This document shows, in pieces, positions 4,787 to 43,664 of a stretch of 64,000 nt of DNA. The stretch's first letter is position 1; every line of letters begins with the position of its first letter. The translations under genes and the position numbers were made by a program. The stretch is from Candidatus Daviesbacteria bacterium RIFCSPHIGHO2_12_FULL_37_16 (GTDB taxonomy: Bacteria; Patescibacteriota; Microgenomatia; Daviesbacterales; UBA10151), in the NCBI GenBank assembly GCA_001776785.1, contig MFDF01000008.1, positions 103,097 through 167,096 of the forward strand, in the 5' to 3' direction. The notes beneath the pieces were generated by a model. That model saw only the letters and a program-made list of their open reading frames with translations, searched no databases and had not been told where the DNA came from.

Positions 4787-4829
4787 ATTCATCTTTTAAT
4801 TTTTACCTTCATAAAATATACTTGAGTCT

Positions 4830-27784: not shown

Positions 27785-28212
27785 GGAAGTGGAGAAGTCT
27801 GCCACAGGGTAAAAAAAGGATTCGAATAATTCCCGAAACTATAGGACATATCGTGAAAAGAAAGTGATATAGTGTGATATAGTTACAGCGTTAACAATAG
27901 CAAACTATAGGGTCTACTGACCCTGCGAGAACTTCACATACTCCAAAGATCGTTGTCTTGGAGTGCTTCGTTCTCTAAAGTCTAGAGGGAGTGGACTACA
28001 CTTTCTAAGGACCTACTTGTGGATAACTTTAGCAGTTCTTACATAAGATTGTTAACCGTATTTTCATGCGTGAAAAATAAAGCGACATCATTTAGCAGAG
28101 GAGTATGGATATTAAATTATCATAAGCATGAGTGTAGAGGCATACTTTTGCTTCCTGCATCCCTGTCCCTACTAGTATTTACCTCTACTTTATTGACAAC
28201 AAGACTGCCCAT

Positions 28213-28233
28213 ATCCACTATGTCGCACAATGT
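28213..28233. repeat. direct repeat copy 1 (ATCCAyyTTGTCGCACAATrT-like)
   Basis: The GC-containing 11-mer TGTCGCACAAT (28221-28231) recurs at 28702-28712; flanks extend the match to about 17/21. Confidence 0.5.
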
Positions 28234-28693
28234 AGCTTATACGACATTCAGGATGCGTCTTTGCCGGAGGAGTGGTTAAACCCAATATAAAATATTAAAG
28301 ATAAAAAATCAAAAATATTTAAGCGTGGTTATTTGTGCCCGTTTTTTGTCATTTTTACTTTTTAATTTTTACTTTTTAATTTTTCCCATTACTAAAATAA
28401 CAATGTTGGGTTTGGACTGCTATATAGACCTAATCTTAAGATTACCAATTGCACCTCTCCCCTCTGCAAAAGCCGTTTTAGGGGACTTTTTGCGCCTTGT
28501 GCAAAAAGGCACCGGTATGAGTTAAATTTATTTGATCAACTAGAAAGTTGAATTCTTTCTTTTCCAAATAAACCACATCTTCTTGCCAAACTAATAGATC
28601 AGTAAATGTTTGTATTTTTCCATCTTTCATATTCTTTAATCATAAATCTTTAATCTTAAATCCACTATATGAATTATCAACCTTTTATGAACT

Positions 28694-28714
28694 ATCCATC
28701 TTGTCGCACAATAT
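28694..28714. repeat. direct repeat copy 2, 60 bp upstream of the giant-gene start
   Basis: See copy 1. Spacing is 481 bp. Confidence 0.5.
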
Positions 28715-28773
28715 TAAGTTTATTTCCGAGCTCCTCGTTGACTATTTACTAATAATATCTGAAGATATATTTA

Positions 28774-31700
28774 ATGGACTCAGTTCGGGAACTTCTGCAC
28801 AATAAAAAAACCCTCATTACCCTGCTCCTAGTTGGAATCCTGATTTTGGCAATACCTCTGGGGATAAGTCTTGTAAAATACCAGCAAAGGTTGTCCTCCC
28901 AGGCAGCAGTACCTGGTATAGAAGTGACCGAGGGAGATTGTGTTAAGTTAAAAAATGGAGTTAAAGTCTTAACCTGCGGCTTTGTTCCATTAAAGCTTAA
29001 TTTCCCGGCCACCCCAACCCCAACTCCTTCCCCAACCCCTACCCCAACGAGTTCCCCTACTCCCACCAGTTCAATTACGCCATCTCCTACTGGTACAACA
29101 GCATCCGTAAACCTGACCATAAATAACCAGGATGGTCCTATACATGTTGATAGTGGTGCTACTTTGGTTCTGAAGTGGGTAACTAATCAAGTCAGAGCTT
29201 GCTCAGCCTCTGAAGCATGGTCTGGAAGTAAAAATGATGATGGTGCATCAGAGACAATATCAAATATTCTTAGCCCTAAAACATTTGTACTGACATGCGA
29301 ACAAAGGGGTAATCCTGATAACAAAATTTCTGACTCCATAACTGTTGTAGTAGGTAATGGGAATTCGAACCTTAGACAAACTGATCCTGCTAAATTTGAA
29401 GCCGATTTAAAAACCATTAGAGATCTAGGAGGGGGTGTTTTGTACATTCCAGCTGGTAGTTATACTTTGCCTAAAGGCTTTACCATATACTCAAATACAA
29501 CCCTTATGGGAGATGGTAAAGGACAGACCAAATTAAAGTTGCCTTCTGGAGTTGATTCAAAAGTAATCTCTTCCTCTGGTGAGGGGAATAACTCAAATAT
29601 AGTGATTAGGGACTTATCAATTGAAGGTCCAGGTGTAAGTGGTCCCAAAGATGACTGTTGCTATGGAATTAGACTTAGAAATATTAAAAACTCTTATTTA
29701 ATTAATGTTGAGGTGTCCGGTTTTAGTCAAGATGGAATTTATTTAGGTCAAGTTAGTAACAAAGGAGTAGATAGTACAAGAATTACAGGGTGTAGTGTTT
29801 TTGGAAATGGTCGTAACGGTATATCAATAGTTCATGGTCAAGGAAATGTTATAGATGGTTGCAGTATAAATGAAAATGGGTCGAGAGAAGCAGTCTCGGC
29901 TATAGACTTAGAACCCGATGGGGGGTTAAATGTTTCCAATAATGTCATAATGAATAATTCGATTGGAGGAAATGCAGGTAATGGTATTGGTCTAGGCGAT
30001 AATCCAAATGATCCAGGAGGGATTGTGTCAAACAATGGGGTTTGTGGAAATACCTTTTCTGGTAACGGTTTTGCAGAGATTGCTCAGAGTAACGATCAAG
30101 GTACATATACTTCTGGTTGTTCAATTCCTTCTGGTCTGTCAAATCTCCCTGCAGCTCCCTCAAGGCCCTCTGCCAATTCTGGCAGTAGTTTATTTGCAAA
30201 ACTTAAAAACCTTATTCCCACTGTATATGCCCATAATATCCCCCCTCAAATAAGTGGTGTTGACTGTTCCAAACCAAGTGTCTTTGTATCATGGGTAATT
30301 GACCCAAATGACAATCACGATATGGATATATTCCGCGATGGGGTCAAAGTAGGTGAAGCAAATGGATTTTTTGAGGACACTACTGTTACCAGAGGTAGAT
30401 TTTATGCATATTCTATTGGTCATGGAGCAAGTGGAACTAATACCAGTGTATGGGCTGATGTAACCTGTGCCACTACCCCACCACCAACCCAACCTCCCAC
30501 AACACCCCCAACTGCCTCACCTACCCAACCTCCCACCCCACCACCTACCTCTCCTCCAACCTCGCCTCCAACTACACCTCCTGGAGGTCCACAGTGCTCT
30601 GATGATATAAACAATGACTTTGATGGCCTGATTGACATAGAAGACCCACAGTGCCATACGGATGGTGATGCAGATAACCCGGAAACCTATGATCCAACTA
30701 TTAAGTTTGAATCCAGACAGTACAGGCTGGCTGAATCAGAATCTGAACTTCAATTCACCCTTTGGAGTGACTACAGAGAAGATCCCCTTCTTACAGAATT
30801 TGGTCTAACAGATGATTCACCAGGGATCAAGCAAATTTGGGTTGAGTTTAAAGAAACTGATGGTAAAACTACAAAAGACAAAGTTACTATTGAACTTGTG
30901 GAACCGGATCCGGTTATTAAAAGCGCCAGGTGTGATTTTGATTCTATAAACAAACAAAACCTCAAGGTTACCATAAAAGGAGAAAGATTCGGAACAAAAG
31001 AAAGCTCTGTTTTTATGGGTTTAGATCTGTCTGAGGAAGATCTTGACCCAAAGAAAAAACCCTTCTCAGGTGCAGAAGTTTTGGAATGGAATGATAAAGA
31101 AATTACACTTCTTATAAGAAGCTTTAAGACATTTTTATTAGAAAGTGTAAGGCTTAAGATGTCTGTTTTTCGCTCAGACCAATCATTCTCAAACATTGCC
31201 TCCTGTGACATTGGTGCATCAATGATTTCACTGGGAGCCCGGGTTTTCTGCAGGGAGCCTGGAAAATTTGACACAGAAAATGTTAAAGTAACTGTCTTTG
31301 ATAAAGACTCAAAGACTGGCAAAATAAACAAGGCTGAAGAAACTGTAAAGATTGACAAAGATGGAGTTATTACTGGATTAAAAACCATTCTGCAGACTGG
31401 CAAAAATTATGCATTATCGATCAAAGCTCCAAACTCGCTCAGAAGGAATGCCACCTTTGTGGCTGAAGAAGGAACAACTATTGTCACAAGACCAAATGAT
31501 CAGGACTTTATCCTGCCCATTGGAGATATTGCCCCAACCCAAAGCCCTGATGGAAAAATTAACACAGTTGATAAAGCAGAATTAACAAGACAGTGGAGAA
31601 TTTTTGGGGAAAATATAAAAGCTCAGACTGGTGACTTTAACAGGGACACCAAAGTTAACTCCTTTGACTGGGCCTGCATGAGGTATGACTTTAATGCAGA

Positions 31701-32292
31701 AGATGACCCCATACCTACAGATATAGAGCAAATTGCACCAATTTCCCAAAACAATTCTTCCGACGCATCAACTCCTGTTAAGCTGGCTAGTACAGGCGGA
31801 GGATCCTCCTCTATTCAACAAACTCCTGTACCTTTATCAGAAGCTTATTTTTCTTTTATCCCTTTTAAAAGCACAGTAAAAAAAAATTGTGATCACGCTG
31901 TAAATATTTATTTAGATACAGGAGGGAAATTTATTGATGGCGTTGATGTAATTATAAAATTTAATCCAAATGTAATAGCAGATACTACCTTTTTTGACGG
32001 CGTGCTTCCATTTGATAAGTATGAGGTAAATGATGATAATACTAGAGACTTTATAACTATTTCAGCCCCTACTCCAACAAATAAACCATTTAGAGGATCT
32101 GGAATATTTGGCCGAATTGTCTTTAAGGTAAAGCCAAACCCTCCTGTCTCTACTTTAGATTTAAGTTTTGATTTTGATCCCAATGATAAAGGCAAAACTA
32201 CTGATTCAAATATTGTTGAAGATAAGACTCTCAAAGATATCCTTAGCTATGTAGTCAATGGAAATTACCAGATTACATCAGGATCCTGCTAA
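28774..32292 (+). CDS. giant surface protein 1 with the following domains: N-terminal signal anchor; Pro/Thr linkers; right-handed beta-helix (pectate-lyase fold); FN3-like module; one thrombospondin-type-3-like calcium-binding repeat; conserved C-terminal module with a dockerin-like duplicated segment; C-terminal cohesin-like domain
   Basis: 1172-aa ORF. Beta-helix repeats: NVEVSGFSQDGIYLG / CSVFGNGRNGISIVHGQGNVIDGCSINENG. TSP3-like CSDDINNDFDGLIDIEDPQCHTDGDADNPETYDP. Dockerin-like GDIAP...DGKINTVDKAELTRQWRIFG...GDFNRDTKVNSFDWACMRYDF. Cohesin-like AVNIYLDTGG...IIKFNPNVIA...GIFGRIVFKVKPN...FDFDPNDKG. Confidence 0.75.
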   Translation: MDSVRELLHNKKTLITLLLVGILILAIPLGISLVKYQQRLSSQAAVPGIEVTEGDCVKLKNGVKVLTCGFVPLKLNFPATPTPTPSPTPTPTSSPTPTSSITPSPTGTTASVNLTINNQDGPIHVDSGATLVLKWVTNQVRACSASEAWSGSKNDDGASETISNILSPKTFVLTCEQRGNPDNKISDSITVVVGNGNSNLRQTDPAKFEADLKTIRDLGGGVLYIPAGSYTLPKGFTIYSNTTLMGDGKGQTKLKLPSGVDSKVISSSGEGNNSNIVIRDLSIEGPGVSGPKDDCCYGIRLRNIKNSYLINVEVSGFSQDGIYLGQVSNKGVDSTRITGCSVFGNGRNGISIVHGQGNVIDGCSINENGSREAVSAIDLEPDGGLNVSNNVIMNNSIGGNAGNGIGLGDNPNDPGGIVSNNGVCGNTFSGNGFAEIAQSNDQGTYTSGCSIPSGLSNLPAAPSRPSANSGSSLFAKLKNLIPTVYAHNIPPQISGVDCSKPSVFVSWVIDPNDNHDMDIFRDGVKVGEANGFFEDTTVTRGRFYAYSIGHGASGTNTSVWADVTCATTPPPTQPPTTPPTASPTQPPTPPPTSPPTSPPTTPPGGPQCSDDINNDFDGLIDIEDPQCHTDGDADNPETYDPTIKFESRQYRLAESESELQFTLWSDYREDPLLTEFGLTDDSPGIKQIWVEFKETDGKTTKDKVTIELVEPDPVIKSARCDFDSINKQNLKVTIKGERFGTKESSVFMGLDLSEEDLDPKKKPFSGAEVLEWNDKEITLLIRSFKTFLLESVRLKMSVFRSDQSFSNIASCDIGASMISLGARVFCREPGKFDTENVKVTVFDKDSKTGKINKAEETVKIDKDGVITGLKTILQTGKNYALSIKAPNSLRRNATFVAEEGTTIVTRPNDQDFILPIGDIAPTQSPDGKINTVDKAELTRQWRIFGENIKAQTGDFNRDTKVNSFDWACMRYDFNAEDDPIPTDIEQIAPISQNNSSDASTPVKLASTGGGSSSIQQTPVPLSEAYFSFIPFKSTVKKNCDHAVNIYLDTGGKFIDGVDVIIKFNPNVIADTTFFDGVLPFDKYEVNDDNTRDFITISAPTPTNKPFRGSGIFGRIVFKVKPNPPVSTLDLSFDFDPNDKGKTTDSNIVEDKTLKDILSYVVNGNYQITSGSC
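29008..29090 (+). repeat. Pro/Thr/Ser-rich low-complexity linker coding repeat (PTPTPSPTPTPTSSPTPTSS)
   Basis: ccaaccccaactcc... periodic CCn-ACn codons. A second linker lies at 30472-30590. Confidence 0.7.
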
Positions 32293-32377: not shown

Positions 32378-35300
32378 TTGCAGGAATACTTAGAAATTTT
32401 TAAAGGTAAAAAAGTTATAACCAGTTTAGTGGTTCTCCTTTTTTTGGTCATAAGTATCCCACTAGCTTTAAATCTTTTTAATTCAAGGCTTAAACTGTTT
32501 TCCAGGGCAGCTTTAGGAGACCCAATTGAACTTTTAGCAGGAAGGTGTGTTGTTTCTGTTGAAGGTAAAAAGATTAACTGCGAAGAGATACCTTTGAAAT
32601 TACTCTCCCCTCTTGGACCTCCCATTCAAAAACCTCCAGCACCTCAAAACCTGGTTGTAGAATCCTCAAGCTGTGAGATCAACTCTCCAGTCATTAAACT
32701 AAAGTGGGACCATGTTAGTGGAGTTTCGGGCTACAGTGTGATTAGGCGGTGGGGAGATAATGACGGGATTGAAGTCTTTGATTTGGACCCTAATTCCAAT
32801 ACCTTTAATGATTCCCCGGCGTCTGACGGTATTGTCTCAGGTACTGAGGTAAAATATCAGGTTTTAGCAGGCAGTGATATTCAGTCAGACCCATCAAATG
32901 AGGTGACTACCCAAGTCGCACTCTGTGGGGTCCCATCCCCACCCCCCACCGCCTGCAATCCCAGGCCAAATGTTATCAGAAACCTCCAGCTTCTCTCAGC
33001 TGACAGGTACAAAGTTACTGCAACAGTGGGAACAAATACCAGTACCCCTACAAATAGTTTTACCAAAGTTAAATTTAACAGCTTAAGTAATGGAAAAATA
33101 GAAATTGGTGGTACTCCTGGTAGGGCTGCTCCATTTGAATATGGACTCAATGGAGCCCAATCTTATTCATTTGAAGTAAAACTGGATAGGCCCTGCCAGG
33201 AATCAACAACGATTTTTGAACATTTTGATGCCTGTGGAAGCTTTCCTGATTTTCAGGGATCTGGAGCTGGCCCTACTGGTTTTGGCCAATTCCCTCAGTG
33301 TCAAACAAGTACACCTGCCCCAACCCCAACAGCAGTCCCTTTACCAACTCCCCTTCCAGGTGTGACATCCTCAACAGTAACCTCAACTGGAGACTTCAGG
33401 CTTATAGGTTCTGGACAATGCACTGGAGGCTCTCCAACTATAGATCTTGTTTGGGATAGGACAGACGGGGGGCCATATACAATAGAAAAAACTCCTGTCC
33501 CAATCCCGGGCCAGCTTGCAGGTCAGCTAACATTGAGGCCAATATTATCAACCTTTGGAAATTATATTGCACTAAACACGACCTACAGTATCTATATTCA
33601 GTCAGTAAATGGTCCTAAATCAGACACTATCTCTATTGCCTCTCCAGCAACCTGTTCTGGAGCATCACTAATTTTTAAAAATAACTTTTCTTTAACAAGC
33701 ATTTTAAATATTCTTAAACCATTTATTGAAAACACCAAAAATATATTTGGTTCACCTGCGTATGCTATTGATCCAGGTGATACAGGTCCTGGTGACCTGC
33801 AGTTAGGTGTTAGCGGCCGCTGTGACTCATCTTTCAGACCGTACGTAAGTGTTGACTGGAATACTAATGGATATTATTACCATATTTTAAGAAACGGCTC
33901 TGAAATAGCCTGGACACCTGCTGCGATGAGTGATTATGGTGTGCAGTCTGGACAAACTTATACTTACCAACTGATTAAAACAGGAATTGATGAACCTGCT
34001 TCCCCAACACAATCTACATCAGTTCCAACCTGTGTAGCTCCAACTCAGGTTCCAACTCAAGCTCCAACACAAGCTCCAACTCAGGCACCAACTCAAGCTC
34101 CAACTCAGGTTCCAACTCAGCTACCCACTCAGGCTCCTACAACTGTTCCTACTTCAACACCAACTGCATATTACCTCTATCCCCCAACTACTCAGACTGT
34201 TGCTACTTCAAACTGCACTGATATAAGAACAACTAAGGTTTCCTGGGATAGTGTGACTGATTCAGGAGGAAATCATAATTACACTAAAACTTTCACTAAA
34301 GCTGCGCTTGACCAAACCTATCCTCAATGGATAATAGGTGCAGGTCTTGATGGAAATAAGGACTTTCCTGCAACAGTTACTATTGCAGGTCAGTCATACA
34401 CTATTCAGCCTGGTGTCTGGAGTTCACATGATGATACCTATCTTGAGTTTTATTACACAGGTGCATTTAGAAAAATACATGGGATAACTGCAGATAATTT
34501 TACTGTTGCAGGATCAGGAACAATTGCAGTGCCAGCAACAATTACTGTGACTGGAAGCAGTCTAAGTTCATATAACAGTACCCCTGTTCCTCCCAATACA
34601 GGTGTAGATATTAAATATTGTGCTGCAGCTGCTCCTACTCCACAGTGCTCCGATTCGTTGGATAATGATTCAGATGGCAAAATTGACTCTGCCGATCCAG
34701 GTTGTCACACAGATGGTAATCCAAATAATCAAGGTTCATATGATCCAAATGACAATGATGAAAGCAATATTACTGAATGTAATGACACAATAGATAATGA
34801 TGGGGATGGTAAAATAGATTCTGCTGACCCACAGTGCCATACAGATGGTAATGCTGACAATCCATCCTCATACGACCCCAATATCCCTTCTGAAGGCGAA
34901 CCACCCCCAGGCAACTTTACAGTCAAATACAGGCTTGCAGAAACAGAAGAAGGTCTAAGCAGTGCAGAATTCAAGCCATATACTCAGGAGCCTATAATAA
35001 CATCCTTTATACTGCAAAACATAGGTCCTGGGCCAAAGCAGGTTTGGGTAGAATTCGTGGACTCAAATGGAGGTTCAAGAGTTGAGAATATAAACCTTAC
35101 CTGGGTTGAACCTGACCCCACAACTGATGCTGTTTCATGCACATTTGATATTTCCAAAGAAAATGTCAAAGTAGTGATTAAAGGAACCGGATTTACAGCA
35201 ACGCCAGGCAGGATCAGTGTTGATGGTAAAGATGCAGAAATTCTGGAATGGAAAACTGATTTGATAACTGCCTTAGTGAGAAAACCAAGCCTGCCAGCCG

Positions 35301-35917
35301 GTGGATCTAAAAGGTTTGCAATTCAGGTTCTCAGGGCAGACGGCAAGGTTATTACTACTGCCCCCTGTGAAATTGATAGGTCATTAATCTATCTTGGCGC
35401 CCGGGTCTTCTGTAGGGAGGAAGGTAAATTTGATGTAGAAAAAGTCCAAATAAGAGTCGTTGATGATGTAAAAAACAAAGTTGATGAAACTGTCTCAATT
35501 GACAAAGATGGTGTAGTCAAAGGGCTTAAAACTTCAATCCAGGCAGGCAGAAGGTATGGCCTCTCTATAAAAGCTCCAAAATCTGTCAGAAGAAATGTTT
35601 TCTTCACTGCTCAGGAAGGCACAACTATAGTTTCCAATCCAGACGGCAGCCAATTTATCCTTCCGGTTGGTGATATTGCCCCTGCAATTCAGGCTGATGG
35701 TAAGATAAACACACTTGATAGGGCTGAACTAACCAGGCAATGGAGAATCTTTGGTACTCCAAAAGAGCCCCAATCTGGAGACTTAAAGATAGATACCAAA
35801 GTTAACTCTTTTGACTGGGCTTGTCAGAGGTATGACTTTAACGCTCAAGATGATCCTATTTTGAATGAAGTTGAGGCTACACAATCTGCAAGTATTATGA
35901 GTAATAACTTGCAATGA
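32378..35917 (+). CDS. giant surface protein 2 (paralog) with the following domains: N-terminal signal anchor; FN3-like modules; (PTQA)n linker; two TSP3-like calcium-binding repeats; conserved C-terminal module with dockerin-like segment
   Basis: 1179-aa ORF. Its N-terminal module GRCVVSVEGKKINCEEIPLKL parallels giant 1 (GDCVKLKNGVKVLTCGFVPLKL). The C-terminal ~330 aa align closely with giant 1 (IYLGARVFCREEGKFD..., GDIAPAIQADGKINTLDRAELTRQWRIFG...DTKVNSFDWACQRYDF). Confidence 0.75.
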   Translation: MQEYLEIFKGKKVITSLVVLLFLVISIPLALNLFNSRLKLFSRAALGDPIELLAGRCVVSVEGKKINCEEIPLKLLSPLGPPIQKPPAPQNLVVESSSCEINSPVIKLKWDHVSGVSGYSVIRRWGDNDGIEVFDLDPNSNTFNDSPASDGIVSGTEVKYQVLAGSDIQSDPSNEVTTQVALCGVPSPPPTACNPRPNVIRNLQLLSADRYKVTATVGTNTSTPTNSFTKVKFNSLSNGKIEIGGTPGRAAPFEYGLNGAQSYSFEVKLDRPCQESTTIFEHFDACGSFPDFQGSGAGPTGFGQFPQCQTSTPAPTPTAVPLPTPLPGVTSSTVTSTGDFRLIGSGQCTGGSPTIDLVWDRTDGGPYTIEKTPVPIPGQLAGQLTLRPILSTFGNYIALNTTYSIYIQSVNGPKSDTISIASPATCSGASLIFKNNFSLTSILNILKPFIENTKNIFGSPAYAIDPGDTGPGDLQLGVSGRCDSSFRPYVSVDWNTNGYYYHILRNGSEIAWTPAAMSDYGVQSGQTYTYQLIKTGIDEPASPTQSTSVPTCVAPTQVPTQAPTQAPTQAPTQAPTQVPTQLPTQAPTTVPTSTPTAYYLYPPTTQTVATSNCTDIRTTKVSWDSVTDSGGNHNYTKTFTKAALDQTYPQWIIGAGLDGNKDFPATVTIAGQSYTIQPGVWSSHDDTYLEFYYTGAFRKIHGITADNFTVAGSGTIAVPATITVTGSSLSSYNSTPVPPNTGVDIKYCAAAAPTPQCSDSLDNDSDGKIDSADPGCHTDGNPNNQGSYDPNDNDESNITECNDTIDNDGDGKIDSADPQCHTDGNADNPSSYDPNIPSEGEPPPGNFTVKYRLAETEEGLSSAEFKPYTQEPIITSFILQNIGPGPKQVWVEFVDSNGGSRVENINLTWVEPDPTTDAVSCTFDISKENVKVVIKGTGFTATPGRISVDGKDAEILEWKTDLITALVRKPSLPAGGSKRFAIQVLRADGKVITTAPCEIDRSLIYLGARVFCREEGKFDVEKVQIRVVDDVKNKVDETVSIDKDGVVKGLKTSIQAGRRYGLSIKAPKSVRRNVFFTAQEGTTIVSNPDGSQFILPVGDIAPAIQADGKINTLDRAELTRQWRIFGTPKEPQSGDLKIDTKVNSFDWACQRYDFNAQDDPILNEVEATQSASIMSNNLQ
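34038..34140 (+). repeat. about 8 tandem copies of a 12-bp unit (caagctccaact) encoding (PTQA/V)n
   Basis: The linker sequence ...VAPTQVPTQAPTQAPTQAPTQAPTQVPTQLPTQAPTTVPT...; the nucleotide units are near-identical. Confidence 0.8.
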
Positions 35918-35957: not shown

Positions 35958-36773
35958 ATGGAAGTATCTGCCAAACCATTAATATATGTAACTAAAGATT
36001 CTGAGATAAAACTTGAACCTAAAAGCCTGCTTAAACGCAGCTTCCTGAAGATTCTTTTCATAATTTTGGGTGTCATTATTATCGGTGAACTTATTTGGGG
36101 AGTCCGTTCAATAATCTCCTCGCAAAACGCACTTATTCCGTCTGTTTCTGAACTTTCTGAAGGGTCTATAATAGTTGATTCCCCAAAAGTTAATTATCAG
36201 GTTGGTGAAGCAGTCCCTATAACTATCAGGGTGGCCACAGGAGGAAAATTAACTGATGCTGCAGATCTAATCCTAAAATATGACCCCAGTGTTTTAAGCC
36301 TTGTAAGCTCTGATATAAAAATAGGCCAAATCTACAAAGATTACCCGGTTGCAGATAATGACCAGTCCTTTGGAGAAGTTAAAGTCTCAGGAATTACCCC
36401 TCCTGGTGAAACAGGTTTTGGTGGAATTGGTGAACTAGCCAGTCTTCAGTTTAAAGCCCTATCATCTGGCAAAACAGTAGTTTCTGTAGATTTTCAAAAA
36501 GATTCAACAATAGATTCAAATATTGTAGAAGCAAATACCACTCATGACATGCTGGGGGTAGTTTATAATAAAGAACTTTTTATTGGTTCTTCACAGTCAA
36601 CCGCGGTTGAAAAAGATAACAAAAACCAGTGCCAGGGCTACATTCAGCTTTGTCAGACATCTGAAAACCAAACAGGAAGGCAGTTCTGCCAACAGGGAAG
36701 GATACAAGGCAACCAGTGTAAATTTGATCCAAATCTGACAATCAGCTGTGATGAATGCAGGGTTTCACAATAA
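35958..36773 (+). CDS. cohesin-like domain protein, N-terminally membrane-anchored, with C-terminal Cys-rich module
   Basis: TM LKILFIILGVIIIGELIWGV. Cohesin-like VPITIRVATGG...LILKYDPSVLSL...GELASLQFKALSSGKTVVSVDF. The C-terminus has 7 Cys (CQGYIQLCQTSENQTGRQFCQQGRIQGNQCKFDPNLTISCDEC). Confidence 0.6.
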   Translation: MEVSAKPLIYVTKDSEIKLEPKSLLKRSFLKILFIILGVIIIGELIWGVRSIISSQNALIPSVSELSEGSIIVDSPKVNYQVGEAVPITIRVATGGKLTDAADLILKYDPSVLSLVSSDIKIGQIYKDYPVADNDQSFGEVKVSGITPPGETGFGGIGELASLQFKALSSGKTVVSVDFQKDSTIDSNIVEANTTHDMLGVVYNKELFIGSSQSTAVEKDNKNQCQGYIQLCQTSENQTGRQFCQQGRIQGNQCKFDPNLTISCDECRVSQ

Positions 36774-36822
36774 ATTTTTAGCTGACCTTGACTTTAAACC
36801 TTATTGTGCACACAATAGATAT

Positions 36823-37548
36823 ATGGGTAGATTAAAATACATTTTAATGTCCTTCCTGGCCTTAGTAATATTCTCAAGCCCGGCATTGGCCCAGGCTGCA
36901 ACCCTTTCATTAAATCCTTCCGCAGGTACATTTAATAGGGGTTGTGTTTTAGGGGTCAATATTGAGCTTGATACTCAGGGCGGCCAAACTGATGGTACAG
37001 ATGTGATCCTAATTTTTGATCCCACAAAGCTTTCAGTTAAAACCTCTGATATTACAAATGGCAAAATTTATCAGGACTACCCTGGCAACTCTGTAGATGC
37101 CCAATCCGGCAAACTTTCTATATCGGGTATCTCCTCAGTTTCAGAACCCTTTACAGGCAAAGGCACTTTTGCCACAGTCCAATTTCATGTTTTGGAAAAT
37201 GCCCCAACTGGTGCAACTTTAATCAGGTTTGATTTTGATCCCAATGATAAAACCAAAACTACAGACACCAATGTAGTTGAAAGAGGCACAATAGCTGACC
37301 TGTTAAGTAGTGTAACTGATGGAAATTATACTGTTGGTACTGGTTCTTGTGTAAGCCAGGGTCAGGGCGCTGCTGGCACTACCATTGGGGGGCAGGGTCA
37401 GGTTGGTACAGTTTCTGCTACTCCCCTGCCTACTAAAGTTCCTTTAAAAGAGTTACCACAGGGAGGGATATTTGATAATACAATAATTATTGCAGCAATT
37501 GGTACAGTTTTAACTATTATTGGCATTGCAGGCCTGGCAATGCTGTAA
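36823..37548 (+). CDS. cohesin-like domain protein with cleavable signal peptide, Gly/Thr linker and C-terminal LPQGG + TM anchor
   Basis: Signal peptide MGRLKYILMSFLALVIFSSPALAQA. Cohesin-like GVNIELDTQGG...ILIFDPTKLSV...GTFATVQFHVLENAPTGATLIRFDFDPNDKTKTTDTNVVE. C-terminal KELPQGGIFDNTIIIAAIGTVLTIIGIAGLAML. The ORF track opens at 36748; I prefer the Met at 36823, which avoids overlap with the upstream gene. Confidence 0.6.
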   Translation: MGRLKYILMSFLALVIFSSPALAQAATLSLNPSAGTFNRGCVLGVNIELDTQGGQTDGTDVILIFDPTKLSVKTSDITNGKIYQDYPGNSVDAQSGKLSISGISSVSEPFTGKGTFATVQFHVLENAPTGATLIRFDFDPNDKTKTTDTNVVERGTIADLLSSVTDGNYTVGTGSCVSQGQGAAGTTIGGQGQVGTVSATPLPTKVPLKELPQGGIFDNTIIIAAIGTVLTIIGIAGLAML

Positions 37549-37572: not shown

Positions 37573-38499
37573 ATGACAAAATCCATCCCCTCCCTAATTA
37601 CTGACTTCTTAGAATATTTGGAGCTTGAACGCAACTCATCCCAGCGCACTATTAGAAATTACGACCATTACTTAAAAAGGTTTGCTGACTTTGCAGGGGA
37701 AATTACCCCAAAAGATATAAATCTGGAAGTTATAAGAAAATACAGGCTTCATCTTGCTAGATATACAGACCCTAAAACTAAAGCTCCCTTAAAAAGAAAA
37801 ACCCAAAACTTTTTTATGATTGCCTTAAGGGCATTTCTAAGGTATCTTACCAGGTTAGATATTCAAACCCTTTCTGCAGAAAAAGTTGAGCTTGGTGAGC
37901 AAGACCCCTCCCCACTTAAAGTTTTAGATGAAGAAAGCCTGCAAAGGCTTTTAGATGCTCCTGACACCTCTTCAAAAGAAGGGATCAGGGATAAAACTAT
38001 TTTAGAAATGCTTTTCTCAACAGGTCTGAGAGTCTCAGAGCTTGCCTCACTAAACAGGGAGCAGGTTAACTTAGACAGAAAGGAGTTTGGGGTTGTGGGC
38101 AAGGGTGGTAAGGAAAGAGTTGTCTTTTTATCAGATACAGCCTGTCAGTGGATAGAAAGGTACTTAATGATAAGAAAGGACAGTTTTAAGCCTCTTTTTA
38201 TCCGCTACCAGGGGCGTGTTGCCCCGGAAGATAATGGTGAGTATATGAGGCTTTCAACCCGCTCAATAGAAAGGATAGTAGAAAAATATGTTAAAGCTTG
38301 TGGACTCTCAGTTAAAGCTACTCCCCACACCCTGCGTCATAACTTTGCAACTGATCTTTTAATAAACGGAGCGGATATAAGAAGTGTTCAGGAAATGCTT
38401 GGTCATTCGAATATTTCAACAACCCAAATCTACACCCATGTCACCAACAAGCACTTAAAAGATGTTCACAAAGCCTTTCATTCTAAAAATAAGGAATAA
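37573..38499 (+). CDS. tyrosine recombinase, XerC/XerD-type
   Basis: N-terminal SAM-like core-binding domain (LEYLELERNSSQRTIRNY). Catalytic R...HTLRHNFATDLLINGADIRSVQEMLGHSNISTTQIYTHV with the terminal Tyr. Confidence 0.8.
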   Translation: MTKSIPSLITDFLEYLELERNSSQRTIRNYDHYLKRFADFAGEITPKDINLEVIRKYRLHLARYTDPKTKAPLKRKTQNFFMIALRAFLRYLTRLDIQTLSAEKVELGEQDPSPLKVLDEESLQRLLDAPDTSSKEGIRDKTILEMLFSTGLRVSELASLNREQVNLDRKEFGVVGKGGKERVVFLSDTACQWIERYLMIRKDSFKPLFIRYQGRVAPEDNGEYMRLSTRSIERIVEKYVKACGLSVKATPHTLRHNFATDLLINGADIRSVQEMLGHSNISTTQIYTHVTNKHLKDVHKAFHSKNKE

Positions 38500-39543: not shown

Positions 39544-41912
39544 GATTAACATCTGTTCAGGCAAGAGAAAGACTTGCCCAATACGGTCTAAACCAATTGC
39601 CCGGCAAATCCGGGTCTAACATCTTGTTCCTGCTGCTTTCCCAATTTAATAACTTCCTGGTCTGGCTTTTGCTTGCAGCAGCTGGGTTATCTTTTTTTGT
39701 AGGAGACTTTATAGACGGCTTTTTAATTCTGGTTATTCTTCTTTTAAATAGCGCATTAGGTTTTTGGCAGGAATTTAAAGCCTCTAAAGAACTTGAAGCT
39801 TTGCGGGCAATGGAAGTTTCAGTAAGCAGGGTTTTGAGGGATGGTACCCAAATTGAAATTTCCTCATATGAAATTGTCCCGGGTGATGTAGTTATTGTAG
39901 AAAGTGGTGACAAAATCCCTGCTGATGGCCATCTGATTGAATCCTTTGACCTTGCTGCCAATGAAGCGGCATTAACAGGAGAATCACTTCCTGTTGCCAA
40001 AACTGCCTCCAAAGATGATGGGGTTTTATATTTTGGATCAACAGTTTCTTCAGGAAGGGGGAAAATTCTAATTGAACAAACAGGTATAAATACCCGCTTT
40101 GGTAAAATTGCCCTGACACTTTCAAACATTTTAGAAGAACCCACTCCCCTTGAAAACTCCCTAAAAGACCTGGCTTTAAAAATTGGGATTCTGGCAGTAA
40201 TTATCTCCATATTTCTGGCAGCCCTAAGATATTTTCAGGGAGAGCAAATTCTGGAGGTAATATTTACCTCAATCGCCATGATGGTGGCAGCAGTTCCGGA
40301 AGGGCTCCCCGCAGTTATAACAGTCCTTTTAGCTTTAGGTGTCAGAAGAATGTATAAGAAAAAAACAATAGTTAGAAAACTATCCGCAATAGAATCTTTA
40401 GGTGCAACCTCTGTTGTCTTAACAGATAAAACAGGAACCTTAACTAAAAACCAGATGTCTGTTAGAAAAATTTTTACAGATAAGTCAAATCTTTCAGAGA
40501 TGTTAAGAGGCTCTGTTATCTGCAACAGTGCTTCCCTTGTAATGAAAGAGGACTTGCCTGGCCGGCAGGCAGGCCATGGAGGTTATGATATTTTAGGTGA
40601 CACCACAGAAGGTGCTCTATTAATTTATGCAAAAAATAAAGGTTTGGATATAGAAGAAGTCCGTTCTTCTGGAAAGATAGAAATGGAGCTGCCCTTTGAT
40701 TTAAAAAGAAGAAGGATGAGTGTACTTTGGGCTGAAGGAAATAAATTATCACTCTTTTGCAAAGGTGCTCCCGAAGTTATCTTATCTCTTTGTAAGCTTA
40801 CTCCTTCAAAACACAAAGAATTAACTACAATTTTTGAAACTTTTGCCAAAGAAGGATTAAGGGTAATTGCGGTTGCCAAGAGGGATAATTTAGTTAAAGG
40901 TGTAGAAAAAGATTTGGAAAAAAATCTTAAGTTTTTAGGTTTTATAGCTATTGCAGATGCTCCAAGGGAAGAAGCAAGTTTGCAAATTGAAAAATTAACA
41001 AAAGCCGGAATCGCAGTAGTTATGATTACGGGAGACAATGAGTTAACGGCTAAAGCCATAGCGGAAGAGGTTGGTCTTTTAAGGATGGGAGATGAAGTTA
41101 TGACTGGCGCACAGCTCGATGAACTCTCAGATGATAAGCTTCTGGAAAAACTTCCAACCATTAAAGTTTTTGCAAGAGTAGTCCCTGAACACAAACTAAG
41201 GGTTGTTACTGCTTACCAACAGTTAGGAAAAGTTGTGGCAGTCACAGGAGATGGGGTCAATGATGCACTTGCCCTAAAAGCAGCCCATGTTGGCATAGCC
41301 ATGGGAGATACAGGGACTGATGTGGCCAAGCAGGCAGCAGACATAGTTATCCTTGATGATAATCTAACTACTATTGTTGATGCTGTTGAGCAGGGAAGGT
41401 TAATATATTCAAACATTATAAAAACAGTCAAATTTTTAATGACAGGAAATCTTTCTGAAGTTCTGGTTATTGTAGGAGCAGCAGTAATAGGGTTCCCCAC
41501 TCCCCTCCTGCCTGCCCAAATATTGTGGATTAACTTTGTTACAGACGGCTTCCCTGCCCTGGCCTTATCTGCAGATGAAGCCTCAGATCACATTATGAGG
41601 GCAAGCCCAAGAGATCCAAATAAATCTATATTAGATCAAAGCAGTTTGAAATTTATTCTTGGTTTTGGAATTTCCATAGCTGTAATTAATTTAGCTGGTT
41701 TTACTTATCTGTATAACTTTTATAATTTAGATGCTGCCCGCTCATTTGTCTTTACAGGAATAGTTATTACTCAAATGATAATGATTTTTATAATGCGCCG
41801 CCACCACTCAATTTGGTCTAATAAATACTTACTAGCAGCAGTTGGATTTGTCCTTCTAATGCAGCTTGCTATCATAACTATTCCCCAGCTGAGAGTACTT
41901 TTTAGTCTTTGA
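39531..41912 (+). CDS. P-type ATPase, type IIA (Ca2+/cation-transporting)
   Basis: Cation-ATPase N-terminus MENVGLTSVQARERLAQYGLNQLP, phosphorylation site DKTGTLT, hinge TGDGVNDALALKAAHVGIAMG, PEGL motif (AAVPEGLP). Confidence 0.85.
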   Translation: MENVGLTSVQARERLAQYGLNQLPGKSGSNILFLLLSQFNNFLVWLLLAAAGLSFFVGDFIDGFLILVILLLNSALGFWQEFKASKELEALRAMEVSVSRVLRDGTQIEISSYEIVPGDVVIVESGDKIPADGHLIESFDLAANEAALTGESLPVAKTASKDDGVLYFGSTVSSGRGKILIEQTGINTRFGKIALTLSNILEEPTPLENSLKDLALKIGILAVIISIFLAALRYFQGEQILEVIFTSIAMMVAAVPEGLPAVITVLLALGVRRMYKKKTIVRKLSAIESLGATSVVLTDKTGTLTKNQMSVRKIFTDKSNLSEMLRGSVICNSASLVMKEDLPGRQAGHGGYDILGDTTEGALLIYAKNKGLDIEEVRSSGKIEMELPFDLKRRRMSVLWAEGNKLSLFCKGAPEVILSLCKLTPSKHKELTTIFETFAKEGLRVIAVAKRDNLVKGVEKDLEKNLKFLGFIAIADAPREEASLQIEKLTKAGIAVVMITGDNELTAKAIAEEVGLLRMGDEVMTGAQLDELSDDKLLEKLPTIKVFARVVPEHKLRVVTAYQQLGKVVAVTGDGVNDALALKAAHVGIAMGDTGTDVAKQAADIVILDDNLTTIVDAVEQGRLIYSNIIKTVKFLMTGNLSEVLVIVGAAVIGFPTPLLPAQILWINFVTDGFPALALSADEASDHIMRASPRDPNKSILDQSSLKFILGFGISIAVINLAGFTYLYNFYNLDAARSFVFTGIVITQMIMIFIMRRHHSIWSNKYLLAAVGFVLLMQLAIITIPQLRVLFSL

Positions 41913-42771
41913 GAGAATTAAGAATTTTAACATTCTCCTCATCTGGGCCATTTCCTGAAAATCCAGGTACTTCTAAAATAAAAGAAATATCTTTAAGTTT
42001 GGGGTGGTTTATTAAATTTTTAAAACCATCAATTCCAATAAAACCTTCACCAATATTTGCATGTCTGTCTATATGTGAATTAAGTTCTGTTTTAGAATCA
42101 TTAGCATGAATTGCAGCTAAATTGGAAAGTCCAATTTCTTTATCAAACTCCTCTAAAGTTTTATCTATTCCCTCAGCAGTTTTTAAATCATATCCTGCAG
42201 CAAAAGCATGCTGGGTATCCATGCAAACTTTCAGTCTGTCATCCTGAACTTGTTTCAGGATCTCTCCCATTTCTGAAAATTTATCTCCAATTACATTTCC
42301 AGCCCCGGCTGTTGTTTCAAGTATAAGCAAAGGCCCGCCATCCACGTTCCCACTCGACATGTGGGAACTCGTTTCATTTAAAATCTTCTTTAATGCCTCA
42401 GTAACTTGGGGTAAAATTTGATGGTAACCTACACCCTTATGAGAGCCTAAATGAAAAATAACTCCCTCGATCCCAAGCTTATCTGCATAGGACAGCGCAT
42501 ATTTAAGCCACTCAATGGATTTTTCTAAATGTTCAGGGTTTGGAGTTCCTAAATTTATTAAATATGTCCCATGGATAAAATTTGGCCTAATCCCTGTTTT
42601 ACTCTTAATATCCTTATATCTTAATATCTCTTCTTTCCCATGTTCAGTAAATCCCCACTTTCTTGGTGGGGAAATAAAAATTTGGGTACACTGCGCCCCA
42701 ATATTTTTTGCCTTTTCAAAACTAGTTTCTAAGGATACTGCTGCACTAACATGCGCTCCAACCTTTGGCAT
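41902..42771 (-). CDS. nfo: endonuclease IV (AP endonuclease family 2)
   Basis: MPKVGAHVS...GIEGVIFHLGSH...LILETTAG..., a TIM-barrel Nfo pattern. Convergent 11-bp overlap with the ATPase. Confidence 0.75.
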   Translation of the reverse strand: MPKVGAHVSAAVSLETSFEKAKNIGAQCTQIFISPPRKWGFTEHGKEEILRYKDIKSKTGIRPNFIHGTYLINLGTPNPEHLEKSIEWLKYALSYADKLGIEGVIFHLGSHKGVGYHQILPQVTEALKKILNETSSHMSSGNVDGGPLLILETTAGAGNVIGDKFSEMGEILKQVQDDRLKVCMDTQHAFAAGYDLKTAEGIDKTLEEFDKEIGLSNLAAIHANDSKTELNSHIDRHANIGEGFIGIDGFKNLINHPKLKDISFILEVPGFSGNGPDEENVKILNSLKD

Positions 42772-43664
42772 TAATGTATTTCCCCTGATATTTCTGTCCC
42801 AATAAACTCTGGATTAAAGGTATTCTTTACTCTTAAAACTATTTTAGTATCCATCAAAGGCTCAACAGTTTTTTCGTATAAAACCCTAGCTCCATTTCTG
42901 GCCATTATATCAGCTTCTTCATACGTCAGGTGAGGTATTATTCGAGCATTAGGATCCTTAGCAGGATCAGTTGAATATACTCCATCAACATCTGTCCAAA
43001 TCCAAACTTCTTTTGCATCTAGAACTCTTCCCAATATTGAAGCTGTGTAATCCGATCCTCCCCTCCCCAAAGTTGTAGGCCTATAATCTTTGGTGGCCCC
43101 CACAAAGCCCGTTACAATCGGCACAACCCCTTTTGCCAGAAGTGAGAGAACCTTCCTCTTGCTATAAATTTCTGTTTTTTCAATATCAGGATTAGCATTC
43201 CCAAAATTATTATCTGTCTCAATAATTTCCGTTGCATCCACAGCTTCAGATTTAATTCCTTGGTAATTTAATGCACTAGCAACAATATGGCAATTAATCC
43301 TTTCCCCCAGCCCTGTAATTAAATCTTTTACTTCCGGAGTAAACCTTGTTGTTCTGCAGGTATTAGCCAGTGTATCAAAATAGAACTTTAAATGATCTTC
43401 TAGAGAATCTTTGTATGGTCGTGAGAGCTCAAGATCCCCAATCACTAAATTATGCTTTGAGGTAATATCTTCAAGCTCAAGTTCAACATCCTGTGGTTTG
43501 TCGCTCTCCAGATAGTTACATACTCTAACTAGAGAGTCTGTAACTCCTCTTATTGCAGAGACAACTACAACAATATCCCCAACCTCTGCTCTCTCATTTG
43601 CAATAATCCTTCCTGTTTTTTCAATCGCTTGAGCGTTTCCAACAGAAGTTCCGCCAAACTTCAT
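42771..43664 (-). CDS. aspartate kinase, catalytic (amino-acid-kinase) domain only; no ACT regulatory domains
   Basis: VMKFGGTSVGNAQAIEK... and C-terminal GARVLYEKTVEPLMDTKIVLRVKNTFNPEFIGTEI. The ORF track extends to a TTG at 43733. The ATG at 43664, preceded by GAAGGAA, matches the family N-terminus, and a terminator hairpin lies at 43735-43757. Confidence 0.55.
   Translation of the reverse strand: MKFGGTSVGNAQAIEKTGRIIANERAEVGDIVVVVSAIRGVTDSLVRVCNYLESDKPQDVELELEDITSKHNLVIGDLELSRPYKDSLEDHLKFYFDTLANTCRTTRFTPEVKDLITGLGERINCHIVASALNYQGIKSEAVDATEIIETDNNFGNANPDIEKTEIYSKRKVLSLLAKGVVPIVTGFVGATKDYRPTTLGRGGSDYTASILGRVLDAKEVWIWTDVDGVYSTDPAKDPNARIIPHLTYEEADIMARNGARVLYEKTVEPLMDTKIVLRVKNTFNPEFIGTEISGEIH

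What the first reader, a model, noticed from the sequence alone, without database searches (positions are those of the whole stretch)
29430..30100. Right-handed parallel beta-helix (pectate-lyase/tailspike fold) region in giant protein 1
The sequence shows periodic about 22-residue repeats rich in G/N/I/V with conserved Asn/Gly ladders: YLINVEVSGFSQDGIYLG, ITGCSVFGNGRNGISIVHGQGNVIDGCSINENG, NNVIMNNSIGGNAGNGIGLG. This is the PbH1 signature found in polysaccharide lyases, glycosidases, phage tailspikes and autotransporter adhesins. In this locus it may be the functional payload, for example glycan cleavage or binding on a host surface.
Basis: partly seen in the sequence, partly recalled or inferred. 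Interest (0 to 1): 0.5.

Follow-up and report, generated by a model that had tools for sequence, protein, structure and literature searches.

The report
Beta-helix sugar-binding domain, surface protein
The flagged stretch really does encode a right-handed parallel beta-helix, the fold of pectate lyases and phage tailspikes, set in a 1172-residue surface protein of an uncultured ultra-small (CPR) groundwater bacterium; it is an uncharacterised member of a well-known fold that probably grips or cuts a polysaccharide, and it sits in an unusual cohesin-dockerin gene cluster.

Summary

The domain belongs to an uncharacterised subfamily. Its conserved polar residues are D320, Y323, R347, D378, E380 and D382. 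By rung register they lie on the sheet that carries the AlgE active site, but the four AlgE catalytic residues and the GH28 motifs are absent.

At least 21 other 50%-identity clusters share the whole architecture: N-terminal anchor, beta-helix, C-terminal dockerin module. The neighbouring paralogue carries a different middle part. Two membrane-anchored cohesin proteins follow.

Best reading: a surface-displayed module that binds and possibly cleaves a glycan, docked through cohesin-dockerin contacts. The fold is certain. Enzymatic activity and substrate are unproven. This is a new member of a known kind, of modest interest.

The parts
28774..32292 (+). P1: gene for the 1172-aa modular surface protein that contains the beta-helix
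   Evidence: ORF listing and translation. The exact protein is called on 21 public contigs, including GCA_000991895.1 LBSJ01000030.1 and a 143-kb JGI groundwater contig. The start is supported by the matching N-termini of relatives.
28774..29001 (+). N-terminal hydrophobic anchor or signal peptide (aa ~13-34, possible S-Q-A|A cleavage site) plus a conserved two-Cys 'head' (aa 45-76)
   Evidence: Read from the sequence. The segment is shared with P2 (BLASTP E 1e-9) and with 21 relatives (phmmer E 1e-7 to 1e-19). Cleavage is inferred, not tested.
29098..29355 (+). Unassigned beta-rich module (aa 109-194) between the Pro/Thr linker and the beta-helix
   Evidence: No Pfam hit at E<=1. The Ig-like character is inferred from the sequence only.
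29365..30123 (+). Right-handed parallel beta-helix domain (aa 198-450): N-cap helix aa 205-217 and about 9 rungs
29731..29919 (+). Candidate functional groove on sheet PB1, rungs 5-7: D320, Y323, R347, N348, H354, D378, E380, D382
   Evidence: Conservation among 55 domain sequences: D320 41/55, Y323 36/55, R347 44/55, D378 32/55, E380 47/55, D382 45/55. Side-chain orientation is inferred from the strand register of the model's DSSP. D320, Y323 and G325 are at the alignment positions of the AlgE catalytic Y149, D152 and H154.
30241..30468 (+). FN3-like module (aa ~490-565)
   Evidence: Similar to a module of P2 (BLASTP E 1e-7). No Pfam hit above noise.
30592..30663 (+). Acidic double-disulfide repeat (aa 607-630)
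   Evidence: NCBIfam NF033662 is weak in P1 (19.8 bits, below the cut-off of 41) but clear in the aligned part of P2 (E 9e-17, 60.5 bits).
30691..31761 (+). Conserved C-terminal carrier module (aa 640-996), 50% identical to P2; it ends in a dockerin-like domain (Pfam aa 926-969, nt 31549-31680)
   Evidence: BLASTP P1 against P2, E 1e-112. Pfam Dockerin_1 22.3 bits (cut-off 22.9) in P1 and 23.0 in P2. phmmer to the CelS dockerin 2mte, E 6e-4. Two D-x-N/D-x-D-G/x-x-[IV]N loops are visible in the sequence. Sixteen clusters carry this module with varied partner domains.
31831..32289 (+). C-terminal cohesin-like domain of P1 (aa ~1020-1172)
   Evidence: BLASTP E 2e-10 to the Pfam-positive cohesin protein at 35958-36770. 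A profile that includes it hits cellulosomal cohesins in the PDB (4ums E 1.1e-6).
32378..35917 (+). P2: 1179-aa paralogue with the same head and C-terminal dockerin module but no beta-helix (FN3-like modules instead)
35958..36773 (+). Cohesin-domain protein A with an N-terminal transmembrane segment and a Cys-rich tail
   Evidence: Pfam Cohesin 30.5 bits, above the cut-off of 24.1. Sequence.
36748..37548 (+). Cohesin-domain protein B (probable start ATG at 36823) with a signal peptide and a C-terminal 'LPQGG' plus hydrophobic tail
   Evidence: Pfam Cohesin 35.8 bits, above the cut-off of 24.1. Sequence.

Best explanation
The region encodes a right-handed parallel beta-helix of about 250 residues. 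It is the exchangeable working module of a secreted or membrane-tethered surface protein of a CPR/Patescibacteria bacterium.

**Shown**
- The fold.
- Membership of the pectate-lyase-like superfamily.
- A conserved modular architecture: N-terminal anchor, beta-helix, dockerin-containing C-terminal module.
- Genetic linkage to cohesin proteins.

**Inferred**
- The helix presents a groove on sheet PB1, lined by conserved D320, Y323, R347, H354, D378, E380 and D382.
- That groove binds an extracellular glycan chain, most plausibly a cell-envelope polymer of a host or neighbouring cell.
- It may cleave the chain, either by acid/base hydrolysis or by Ca2+- and Arg-assisted beta-elimination, as in tailspike depolymerases.
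- Meanwhile the dockerin holds the protein on the membrane-anchored cohesin proteins encoded just downstream.

**My estimates:** fold 0.97; glycan-directed function about 0.7; truly catalytic about 0.4.
For: - **Homology to carbohydrate-active beta-helices.** Profile against PDB sequences: gp12 E 2e-18, AlgE6 2e-17, AlgE4 1e-15, 8ja4 3e-12, a GH87 enzyme 9e-6. PHROG tail-spike family E 1.8e-9.
- **Conserved polar cluster.** Residues on the PB1 face are conserved across 55 family members. D320, Y323 and G325 occupy the alignment columns of AlgE Y149, D152 and H154 (catalytic residues from PMC7385640). The gp12 'FEIDD' segment aligns with P1 'IDLEP'.
- **Surface location.** An N-terminal hydrophobic segment and Pro/Thr linkers.
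- **Modularity.** Twenty-one 50%-identity clusters share head, beta-helix and C-terminal module. The same C-terminal module carries PA14, TIG, DUF1554, cupredoxin or cohesin domains elsewhere. P2 has FN3-like modules instead.
- **Docking.** Dockerin. Two adjacent cohesin proteins with membrane anchors. The same beta-helix/dockerin-then-cohesin gene order occurs in relative locus L085.
- **Plausibility in CPR.** Essential envelope proteins with dockerin and FN3 domains in a cultivated Saccharibacterium were proposed to target host glycans (PMC10633639).
Against: - No characterised catalytic signature is present. AlgE Y149/D152/H154/D178 align to D320/Y323/G325/~V353. The GH28 motifs NTD, GHG and RIK are absent.
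- Identity to any solved structure is only about 16-22%.
- The geometry of the conserved residues could not be measured because the tools do not return model coordinates. Their placement rests on strand register.
- No glycan-metabolism genes are linked in the window.
- Substrate and host are unknown.
- Pfam dockerin in P1 is 0.6 bits below its cut-off.
Confidence: 0.55

Rival explanations
1. The domain is a non-catalytic adhesin or structural spacer. The beta-helix would be a rigid stalk or lectin-like binding surface, as in S. pneumoniae PfbA or S-layer and fibril components. It would attach the cell to a host or matrix without cutting anything.
For: - No known catalytic motif is conserved.
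- The protein is embedded among adhesion-type modules: FN3-like, Ig-like, dockerin and cohesin.
- P1 carries both a dockerin and a cohesin, which suits assembly of a scaffold.
Against: - A cluster of charged residues (D320, R347, E380, D382) is kept in 75-85% of 55 diverse family members, including short stand-alone secreted proteins outside this architecture. That is more typical of an active or ligand site than of a spacer.
- The nearest sequence relatives with known function are enzymes: gp12, AlgE and GH87.
Confidence: 0.3
2. The domain is an AlgE-type mannuronan C-5 epimerase or alginate lyase that modifies an alginate-like uronic-acid polymer.
Against: - All four catalytic residues (Y149, D152, H154, D178; PMC7385640) are replaced: D320, Y323, G325 and ~V353 in P1, and D/Y/G in the family consensus.
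- AlgE has extra rungs that are absent here.
- No Ca-binding R-modules are detected.
Confidence: 0.04
3. The domain is a phage tailspike or prophage remnant rather than a cellular gene.
For: The fold matches and the phi29 gp12 sequence match, and a PHROG tail-spike hit.
Against: - tblastn against 50,697 phage records finds nothing at E<=1e-3.
- Neighbours are housekeeping genes (YebC, RuvC, gyrA/B, dnaB, Mur ligases) and there are no phage structural genes.
- No intramolecular-chaperone or tail-attachment domain is found.
- The architecture is conserved in many cellular contigs.
Confidence: 0.02

Closest known systems
AlgE4/AlgE6 A-modules and the alginate epimerase/lyase 8ja4 (mannuronan C-5 epimerases)
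   Different: The catalytic Y149/D152/H154/D178 are not conserved. AlgE has additional rungs and Ca-binding R-modules. Identity is only about 19-21%. P1 is membrane- or dockerin-tethered, not secreted by a type I system.
Bacteriophage phi29 gp12 pre-neck appendage (wall-teichoic-acid-degrading tailspike)
   Different: There is no trimerisation or auto-chaperone C-terminal domain, no phage context and no tblastn similarity to any phage genome. I could not retrieve the gp12 catalytic residues, so they are not compared.
Phage tailspike and capsule depolymerases, GH87, GH28 and PL families (Pfam clan Pec_lyase-like)
   Different: None of their signature motifs is present; GH28 NTD/GHG/RIK are absent. 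No CAZy family assignment was possible with these tools.
PfbA, the beta-helix adhesin of Streptococcus pneumoniae
   Different: PfbA is sortase-anchored and binds host proteins. There is no significant sequence relationship beyond the N-terminal strands (E 2e-3).
Cellulosomal dockerin-bearing enzymes and cohesin scaffoldins
   Same: A working module joined by linkers to a dockerin. Cohesin proteins with membrane anchors are encoded alongside.
   Different: The organism is a small-genome CPR bacterium. P1 carries both a dockerin and a cohesin. The dockerin score is borderline, and no cellulases or recognised CAZymes are in the cluster.
Essential dockerin/FN3/VCBS envelope proteins of the Saccharibacterium 'Se' (Wang et al. 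2023, PMC10633639)
   Same: CPR surface proteins with dockerin and FN3 domains, proposed to target host glycans for adhesion or degradation.
   Different: A different CPR lineage. No beta-helix is reported there, and I did not test homology to those proteins.

Membership tests
Right-handed parallel beta-helix / Pec_lyase-like superfamily (Pfam PF13229 Beta_helix) | Profile score at or above Pfam's curated cut-off | tested here: met
   27.9 bits against a cut-off of 25.9, E 2.1e-6, aa 298-444.
Right-handed parallel beta-helix / Pec_lyase-like superfamily (Pfam PF13229 Beta_helix) | Three-stranded rungs coiled into a right-handed parallel helix, with an N-terminal capping helix | tested here: met
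Right-handed parallel beta-helix / Pec_lyase-like superfamily (Pfam PF13229 Beta_helix) | Stacked Asn (or Cys) ladders at the turns | tested here: met
   N311/C340/C363/N395/N426, N345/N368/N401/N431 and N358/N390/N421 align rung to rung. Most are 73-100% conserved in 55 sequences.
Pfam PF12708 Pect-lyase_RHGA_epim (gp12 / AlgE / rhamnogalacturonase A type) | Profile score at or above the curated cut-off | tested here: inconclusive
   25.0 bits against a cut-off of 27 for P1, aa 220-396. Several close relatives carry a precomputed PF12708 hit.
AlgE-type mannuronan C-5 epimerase / alginate lyase | Catalytic residues Tyr149, Asp152, His154, Asp178 (YG[FI]DPH[DE] motif) | tested here: not met
   In the profile alignment these columns hold D320, Y323 and G325. 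D178 falls at about V353 by rung register. No DPH motif is present.
AlgE-type mannuronan C-5 epimerase / alginate lyase | Ca2+-binding R-modules following the A-module | tested here: not met
   Pfam and NCBIfam scans of the whole protein detect no such repeats.
phi29 gp12-type phage tailspike | Homologous beta-helix | tested here: met
phi29 gp12-type phage tailspike | Phage genomic context and a C-terminal auto-chaperone/trimerisation domain | tested here: not met
   Neighbours are housekeeping genes. No such domain is found by Pfam. There is no tblastn match in 50,697 phage records.
phi29 gp12-type phage tailspike | Conservation of the teichoic-acid-cleaving active-site residues | not testable with these tools
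   The primary papers (Xiang 2009; Myers 2015) are not held in the library, so the residue identities could not be confirmed.
GH28 polygalacturonase | Signature motifs NTD, G/QDD, GHG, RIK on consecutive rungs (established knowledge of the family) | tested here: not met
   A string search of aa 198-450 finds none of NTD, GHG or RIK. The single DD (aa 293-294) is not conserved.
Cellulosome-like cohesin-dockerin system | Dockerin domain with duplicated Ca2+-binding loop-helix motif | tested here: inconclusive
   Pfam Dockerin_1 scores 22.3 bits (cut-off 22.9) in P1 and 23.0 in P2. phmmer to the CelS dockerin gives E 6e-4. Two D-rich loops (PDGKINTVD and DFNRDTKVNSFD) are visible.
Cellulosome-like cohesin-dockerin system | Cognate cohesin module encoded in the system | tested here: met
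   Two adjacent genes pass the Pfam Cohesin cut-off at 30.5 and 35.8 bits against 24.1. The profile hits cellulosomal cohesin 4ums at E 1.1e-6. The same linkage occurs in L085.
Cellulosome-like cohesin-dockerin system | Ca2+-dependent physical binding of the dockerin to the cohesin | not testable with these tools
   This needs pull-down or ITC experiments.
   No autotransporter domain is found in the Pfam or NCBIfam scans. The C-terminus is cohesin-like.

The most novel reading that the evidence does not exclude
This CPR bacterium, and at least 21 related lineages, may assemble a cellulosome-like surface apparatus that is not used for plant biomass. Interchangeable 'warheads' share one N-terminal head and one dockerin module, and they plug into membrane-anchored cohesins. 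In P1 the warhead is a tailspike-like beta-helix depolymerase. P1 also ends in its own cohesin, so units could chain. The apparatus would attach to and locally digest the envelope glycans of the host cell on which the episymbiont lives. In function it would be a cellular counterpart of a phage tailspike.
Probability: 0.2. Interest if true: 0.65.

Novelty: new member of a known kind. Interest (0 to 1): 0.3.

Why it matters
On its own, the finding is a correct but ordinary domain call: a pectate-lyase-like beta-helix in a surface protein. Its wider value lies in the context. How CPR/Patescibacteria episymbionts recognise and breach host envelopes is largely unknown. A conserved family of surface proteins pairs a tailspike-like beta-helix with a dockerin, next to membrane-anchored cohesins. 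That gives concrete, clonable candidates for host-glycan recognition or degradation, and for a non-cellulolytic use of cohesin-dockerin assembly. If the domain proves catalytic, its conserved D/R/E/D constellation would define a new enzyme subfamily.

Tried and rejected
1. **Related loci in reference genomes.** The search failed with the alignment and found no confirmed relative with the single domain.
2. **Cluster look-up.** The exact-sequence look-up did not find P1 or P2, so no source names were obtained. A literature search for the assembly accession found nothing.
3. **phi29 gp12 catalytic residues.** The two primary papers are not held, and the reviews and searches did not give the residues.
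4. **AlphaFold-database fold search.** Not available on the machine. The viral library was used instead.
5. **Phage origin.** tblastn against phages gave no match, so this was rejected.
6. **AlgE-type epimerase.** Rejected on catalytic residues.
7. **GH28.** Rejected on motifs.
8. **Single-sequence PDB search.** The domain alone gave only noise. The profile search was needed.
9. **The 1-kb gap upstream of P1.** No tRNA and no Rfam family. Promoter and terminator scans were at background level.
10. **Other P1 modules.** Pfam on the isolated modules (aa 109-194, 485-570, 640-925, 1001-1172) gave nothing significant.
11. **Side-chain geometry.** It could not be measured because model coordinates are not returned.
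Full report
**1. The observation**

- The flagged nt 29430-30100 lie inside one long ORF, 28774-32292 on the + strand (1172 aa). They correspond to aa 219-443.
- The segment is enriched in Gly (17.0%) and Asn (11.1%) relative to the whole protein (8.8% and 6.9%).
- The minus-strand ORFs that overlap it (28749-29120, 30771-31403) have no support. The + frame is supported by homologues along its whole length.

**2. Is it a beta-helix?** Yes, by four independent lines.

- **Pfam.** PF13229 Beta_helix matches aa 298-444 at 27.9 bits against a curated cut-off of 25.9 (E 2.1e-6). PF12708, the gp12/AlgE/rhamnogalacturonase type, matches aa 220-396 at 25.0 bits, just under its cut-off of 27. NCBIfam gives only weak generic parallel-beta-helix hits.
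- **Sequence relatives.**
  - The domain (aa 195-480) finds relatives at E down to 1.4e-45 in a 5.8-billion-protein collection, all annotated with beta-helix Pfam families.
  - A profile built from them retrieves 28,915 proteins at E<=1e-3 and 94 at E<=1e-30 from 1.84 billion representatives.
- **Structure model.**
  - An AlphaFold2 model built on that alignment is confident (mean pLDDT 87.7, pTM 0.89).
  - It shows an N-terminal helix (aa 205-217) followed by short strands in the three-per-turn pattern of a parallel beta-helix.
- **Fold comparison.**
  - These are followed by cyanophage and Acinetobacter tailspikes, GH87 alpha-1,3-glucanases, GH28 polygalacturonases, pectate lyases and the adhesin PfbA.
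  - Foldseek against the PDB and against viral models agrees.

**3. Anatomy of the domain**

- Using the first inward-facing residue of each PB1 strand as anchor (I299, I322, I350, I377, I405, I436), the rungs are 23, 28, 27, 28 and 31 residues long.
- Three ladders run through the turns: N311/C340/C363/N395/N426, N345/N368/N401/N431 and N358/N390/N421. Most positions are 73-100% conserved in a 55-sequence family alignment.
- C424 is invariant. C295-C296 is a conserved vicinal pair (73-76%).

**4. What kind of beta-helix?**

*Nearest characterised relatives*
- A profile search of PDB sequences puts the family nearest to phi29 gp12 (E 2e-18), AlgE6 and AlgE4 (2e-17, 1e-15) and 8ja4 (3e-12). Weaker links go to a phage pectin-lyase-like protein, a K1 capsule depolymerase and GH87.
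- Identity to any solved structure is 16-22%, so no characterised protein is close.

*Catalytic signatures tested*
- AlgE epimerases use Tyr149, Asp152, His154 and Asp178 (PMC7385640).
  - In the HMM alignment these columns hold D320, Y323 and G325 in P1.
  - By rung register D178 falls at about V353.
  - The family consensus there is D-G-[IF]-Y-L-G-Y.
  - The AlgE mechanism is therefore not conserved.
- The GH28 motifs NTD, GHG and RIK are absent.
- I could not obtain the gp12 catalytic residues. In the alignment, the gp12 strand 'FEIDD' pairs with P1 'IDLEP'.

*What is conserved in this subfamily*
- A polar set: K/R300 (45/55), D320 (41/55), Y323 (36/55), R347 (44/55), H354 (28/55), D378 (32/55), E380 (47/55) and D382 (45/55).
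- By the alternation of inward hydrophobic residues in the PB1 strands, these side chains point outward on PB1 and its entry and exit loops in rungs 4-7. That is the same face that carries the AlgE active site.
It fits either acid/base hydrolysis or Ca2+- and Arg-assisted beta-elimination, or simply a ligand site.

**5. The protein around it**

P1 is modular. In order, it contains:
- an N-terminal hydrophobic segment, either a signal-anchor or a signal peptide with a conserved small-x-Ala site;
- a two-Cys head;
- a Pro/Thr linker;
- an unassigned beta-rich module;
- the beta-helix;
- an FN3-like module;
- a second Pro/Thr linker;
- an acidic double-disulfide repeat;
- a module of about 350 residues ending in a dockerin-like domain (Pfam 22.3 bits against 22.9; CelS dockerin E 6e-4);
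- a C-terminal cohesin-like domain (BLASTP 2e-10 to the neighbouring cohesin protein; profile hit to cellulosomal cohesin 4ums at E 1e-6).

The next gene, P2 (32378-35917), shares the head and the C-terminal module (50% identity over 398 residues, E 1e-112). It has FN3-like modules instead of a beta-helix.

Two genes for cohesin-domain proteins follow, both above the Pfam cut-off:
- one has an N-terminal transmembrane segment;
- the other has a signal peptide and a C-terminal 'LPQGG' plus hydrophobic tail.

**6. Relatives**

- Among the 155 best representatives of the beta-helix profile, 21 clusters share the head, the beta-helix and the C-terminal module; a 22nd (P0043, 427 aa) shows only the head and the beta-helix.
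- Examples are P0022, P0021, P0032 and P0025, which keep 'DG[IF]YLG', 'G/N-x-RNG[IV]S' and 'IDLEPD'.
- In the one relative with a usable contig (L085), the beta-helix/dockerin gene is again followed by a cohesin gene. It is flanked by small T4SS-pilin-like genes.
- A search with the C-terminal module alone found 16 clusters. Their other domains include Beta_helix, PA14, TIG, DUF1554, cupredoxin and Cohesin.
- Shorter stand-alone secreted proteins (300-570 aa) with the same conserved residues occur outside this architecture. One sits among peptidase and beta-lactamase-fold genes, which is uninformative.

**7. Organism and context**

- The window is chromosomal. It carries dnaB, gyrA, gyrB, lysyl-tRNA synthetase-type, Mur ligase, ruvC and yebC genes and has 34-41% GC.
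- The exact P1 protein occurs in NCBI assembly GCA_000991895.1 and in groundwater metagenomes.
- GyrB is at most 61% identical to reference genomes. A Candidatus Gottesmanbacteria MAG and other CPR/Patescibacteria are among the top hits. DUF5656 lies upstream.
- There is no phage context and no tblastn match in 50,697 phage records.

**8. Interpretation**

- **Best reading (0.55).** A surface-displayed, glycan-directed beta-helix that binds and possibly depolymerises an extracellular or host-envelope polysaccharide. It would be held at the cell surface by dockerin-cohesin contacts.
- **Support from the literature.** In a cultivated Saccharibacterium, essential envelope proteins with dockerin and FN3 domains were proposed to target host glycans for adhesion or degradation (PMC10633639).
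- **Main rival (0.3).** A purely adhesive or structural role.
- **Rejected.** An AlgE-like epimerase and a phage remnant are effectively excluded.

**9. Verdict**

- It is a new member of a very well-known fold class, so interest is modest (0.3).
- The more interesting, still speculative aspect is the conserved CPR cohesin-dockerin surface system that carries it.

Noticed in passing
window 32378-35917 (+): P2 is a 1179-aa paralogue of P1. It has the same N-terminal head and C-terminal dockerin module (50% identity over 398 aa) but a different middle part: FN3-like modules, a long PTQA-repeat linker and two clear acidic double-disulfide repeats (NF033662, E 9e-17).
   Followed up: partly
window 35958-36773 and 36748-37548 (+): Two adjacent cohesin-domain proteins, both above the Pfam cut-off. 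The first has an N-terminal TM segment and a Cys-rich C-terminal tail. The second (probable start at 36823) has a signal peptide and a C-terminal 'LPQGG' followed by a hydrophobic tail, reminiscent of a sortase-type sorting signal. A cohesin-dockerin system in a CPR genome is unusual.
   Followed up: partly
window 31831-32289 (+): P1 ends in its own cohesin-like domain, so it carries both a dockerin and a cohesin and could in principle chain head-to-tail. None of the 21 same-architecture relatives among the top representatives matched this extension, although P0162 combines a dockerin and a cohesin.
   Followed up: partly
window 27785-28773: A gap of about 1 kb without a convincing ORF lies directly upstream of P1. 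It has no tRNA and no Rfam family (best E 0.13, noise), and promoter and terminator matches are at background level. Its function is unexplained.
   Followed up: partly
window ~41900-42800: Gene orientation and GC skew flip together here. Genes are mostly on the + strand with positive skew before about 42 kb. They are almost all on the - strand with skew of -0.15 to -0.26 after it. This convergent arrangement looks terminus-like. A XerC/D-type tyrosine recombinase lies at 37573-38499.
   Followed up: no
L085:839-1198 and 4523-4825: In a related CPR contig, the beta-helix/dockerin gene and its cohesin partner are flanked by small T4SS_pilin-like (PF18895) genes. This hints at a link between this surface system and a pilus or secretion apparatus.
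   Followed up: no
window 29656-29661 (aa 295-296): A vicinal Cys-Cys pair just before the first regular rung is conserved in about 75% of the beta-helix subfamily, and C424 is invariant. Possible disulfides, including a rare vicinal one, could not be checked without model coordinates.
   Followed up: no
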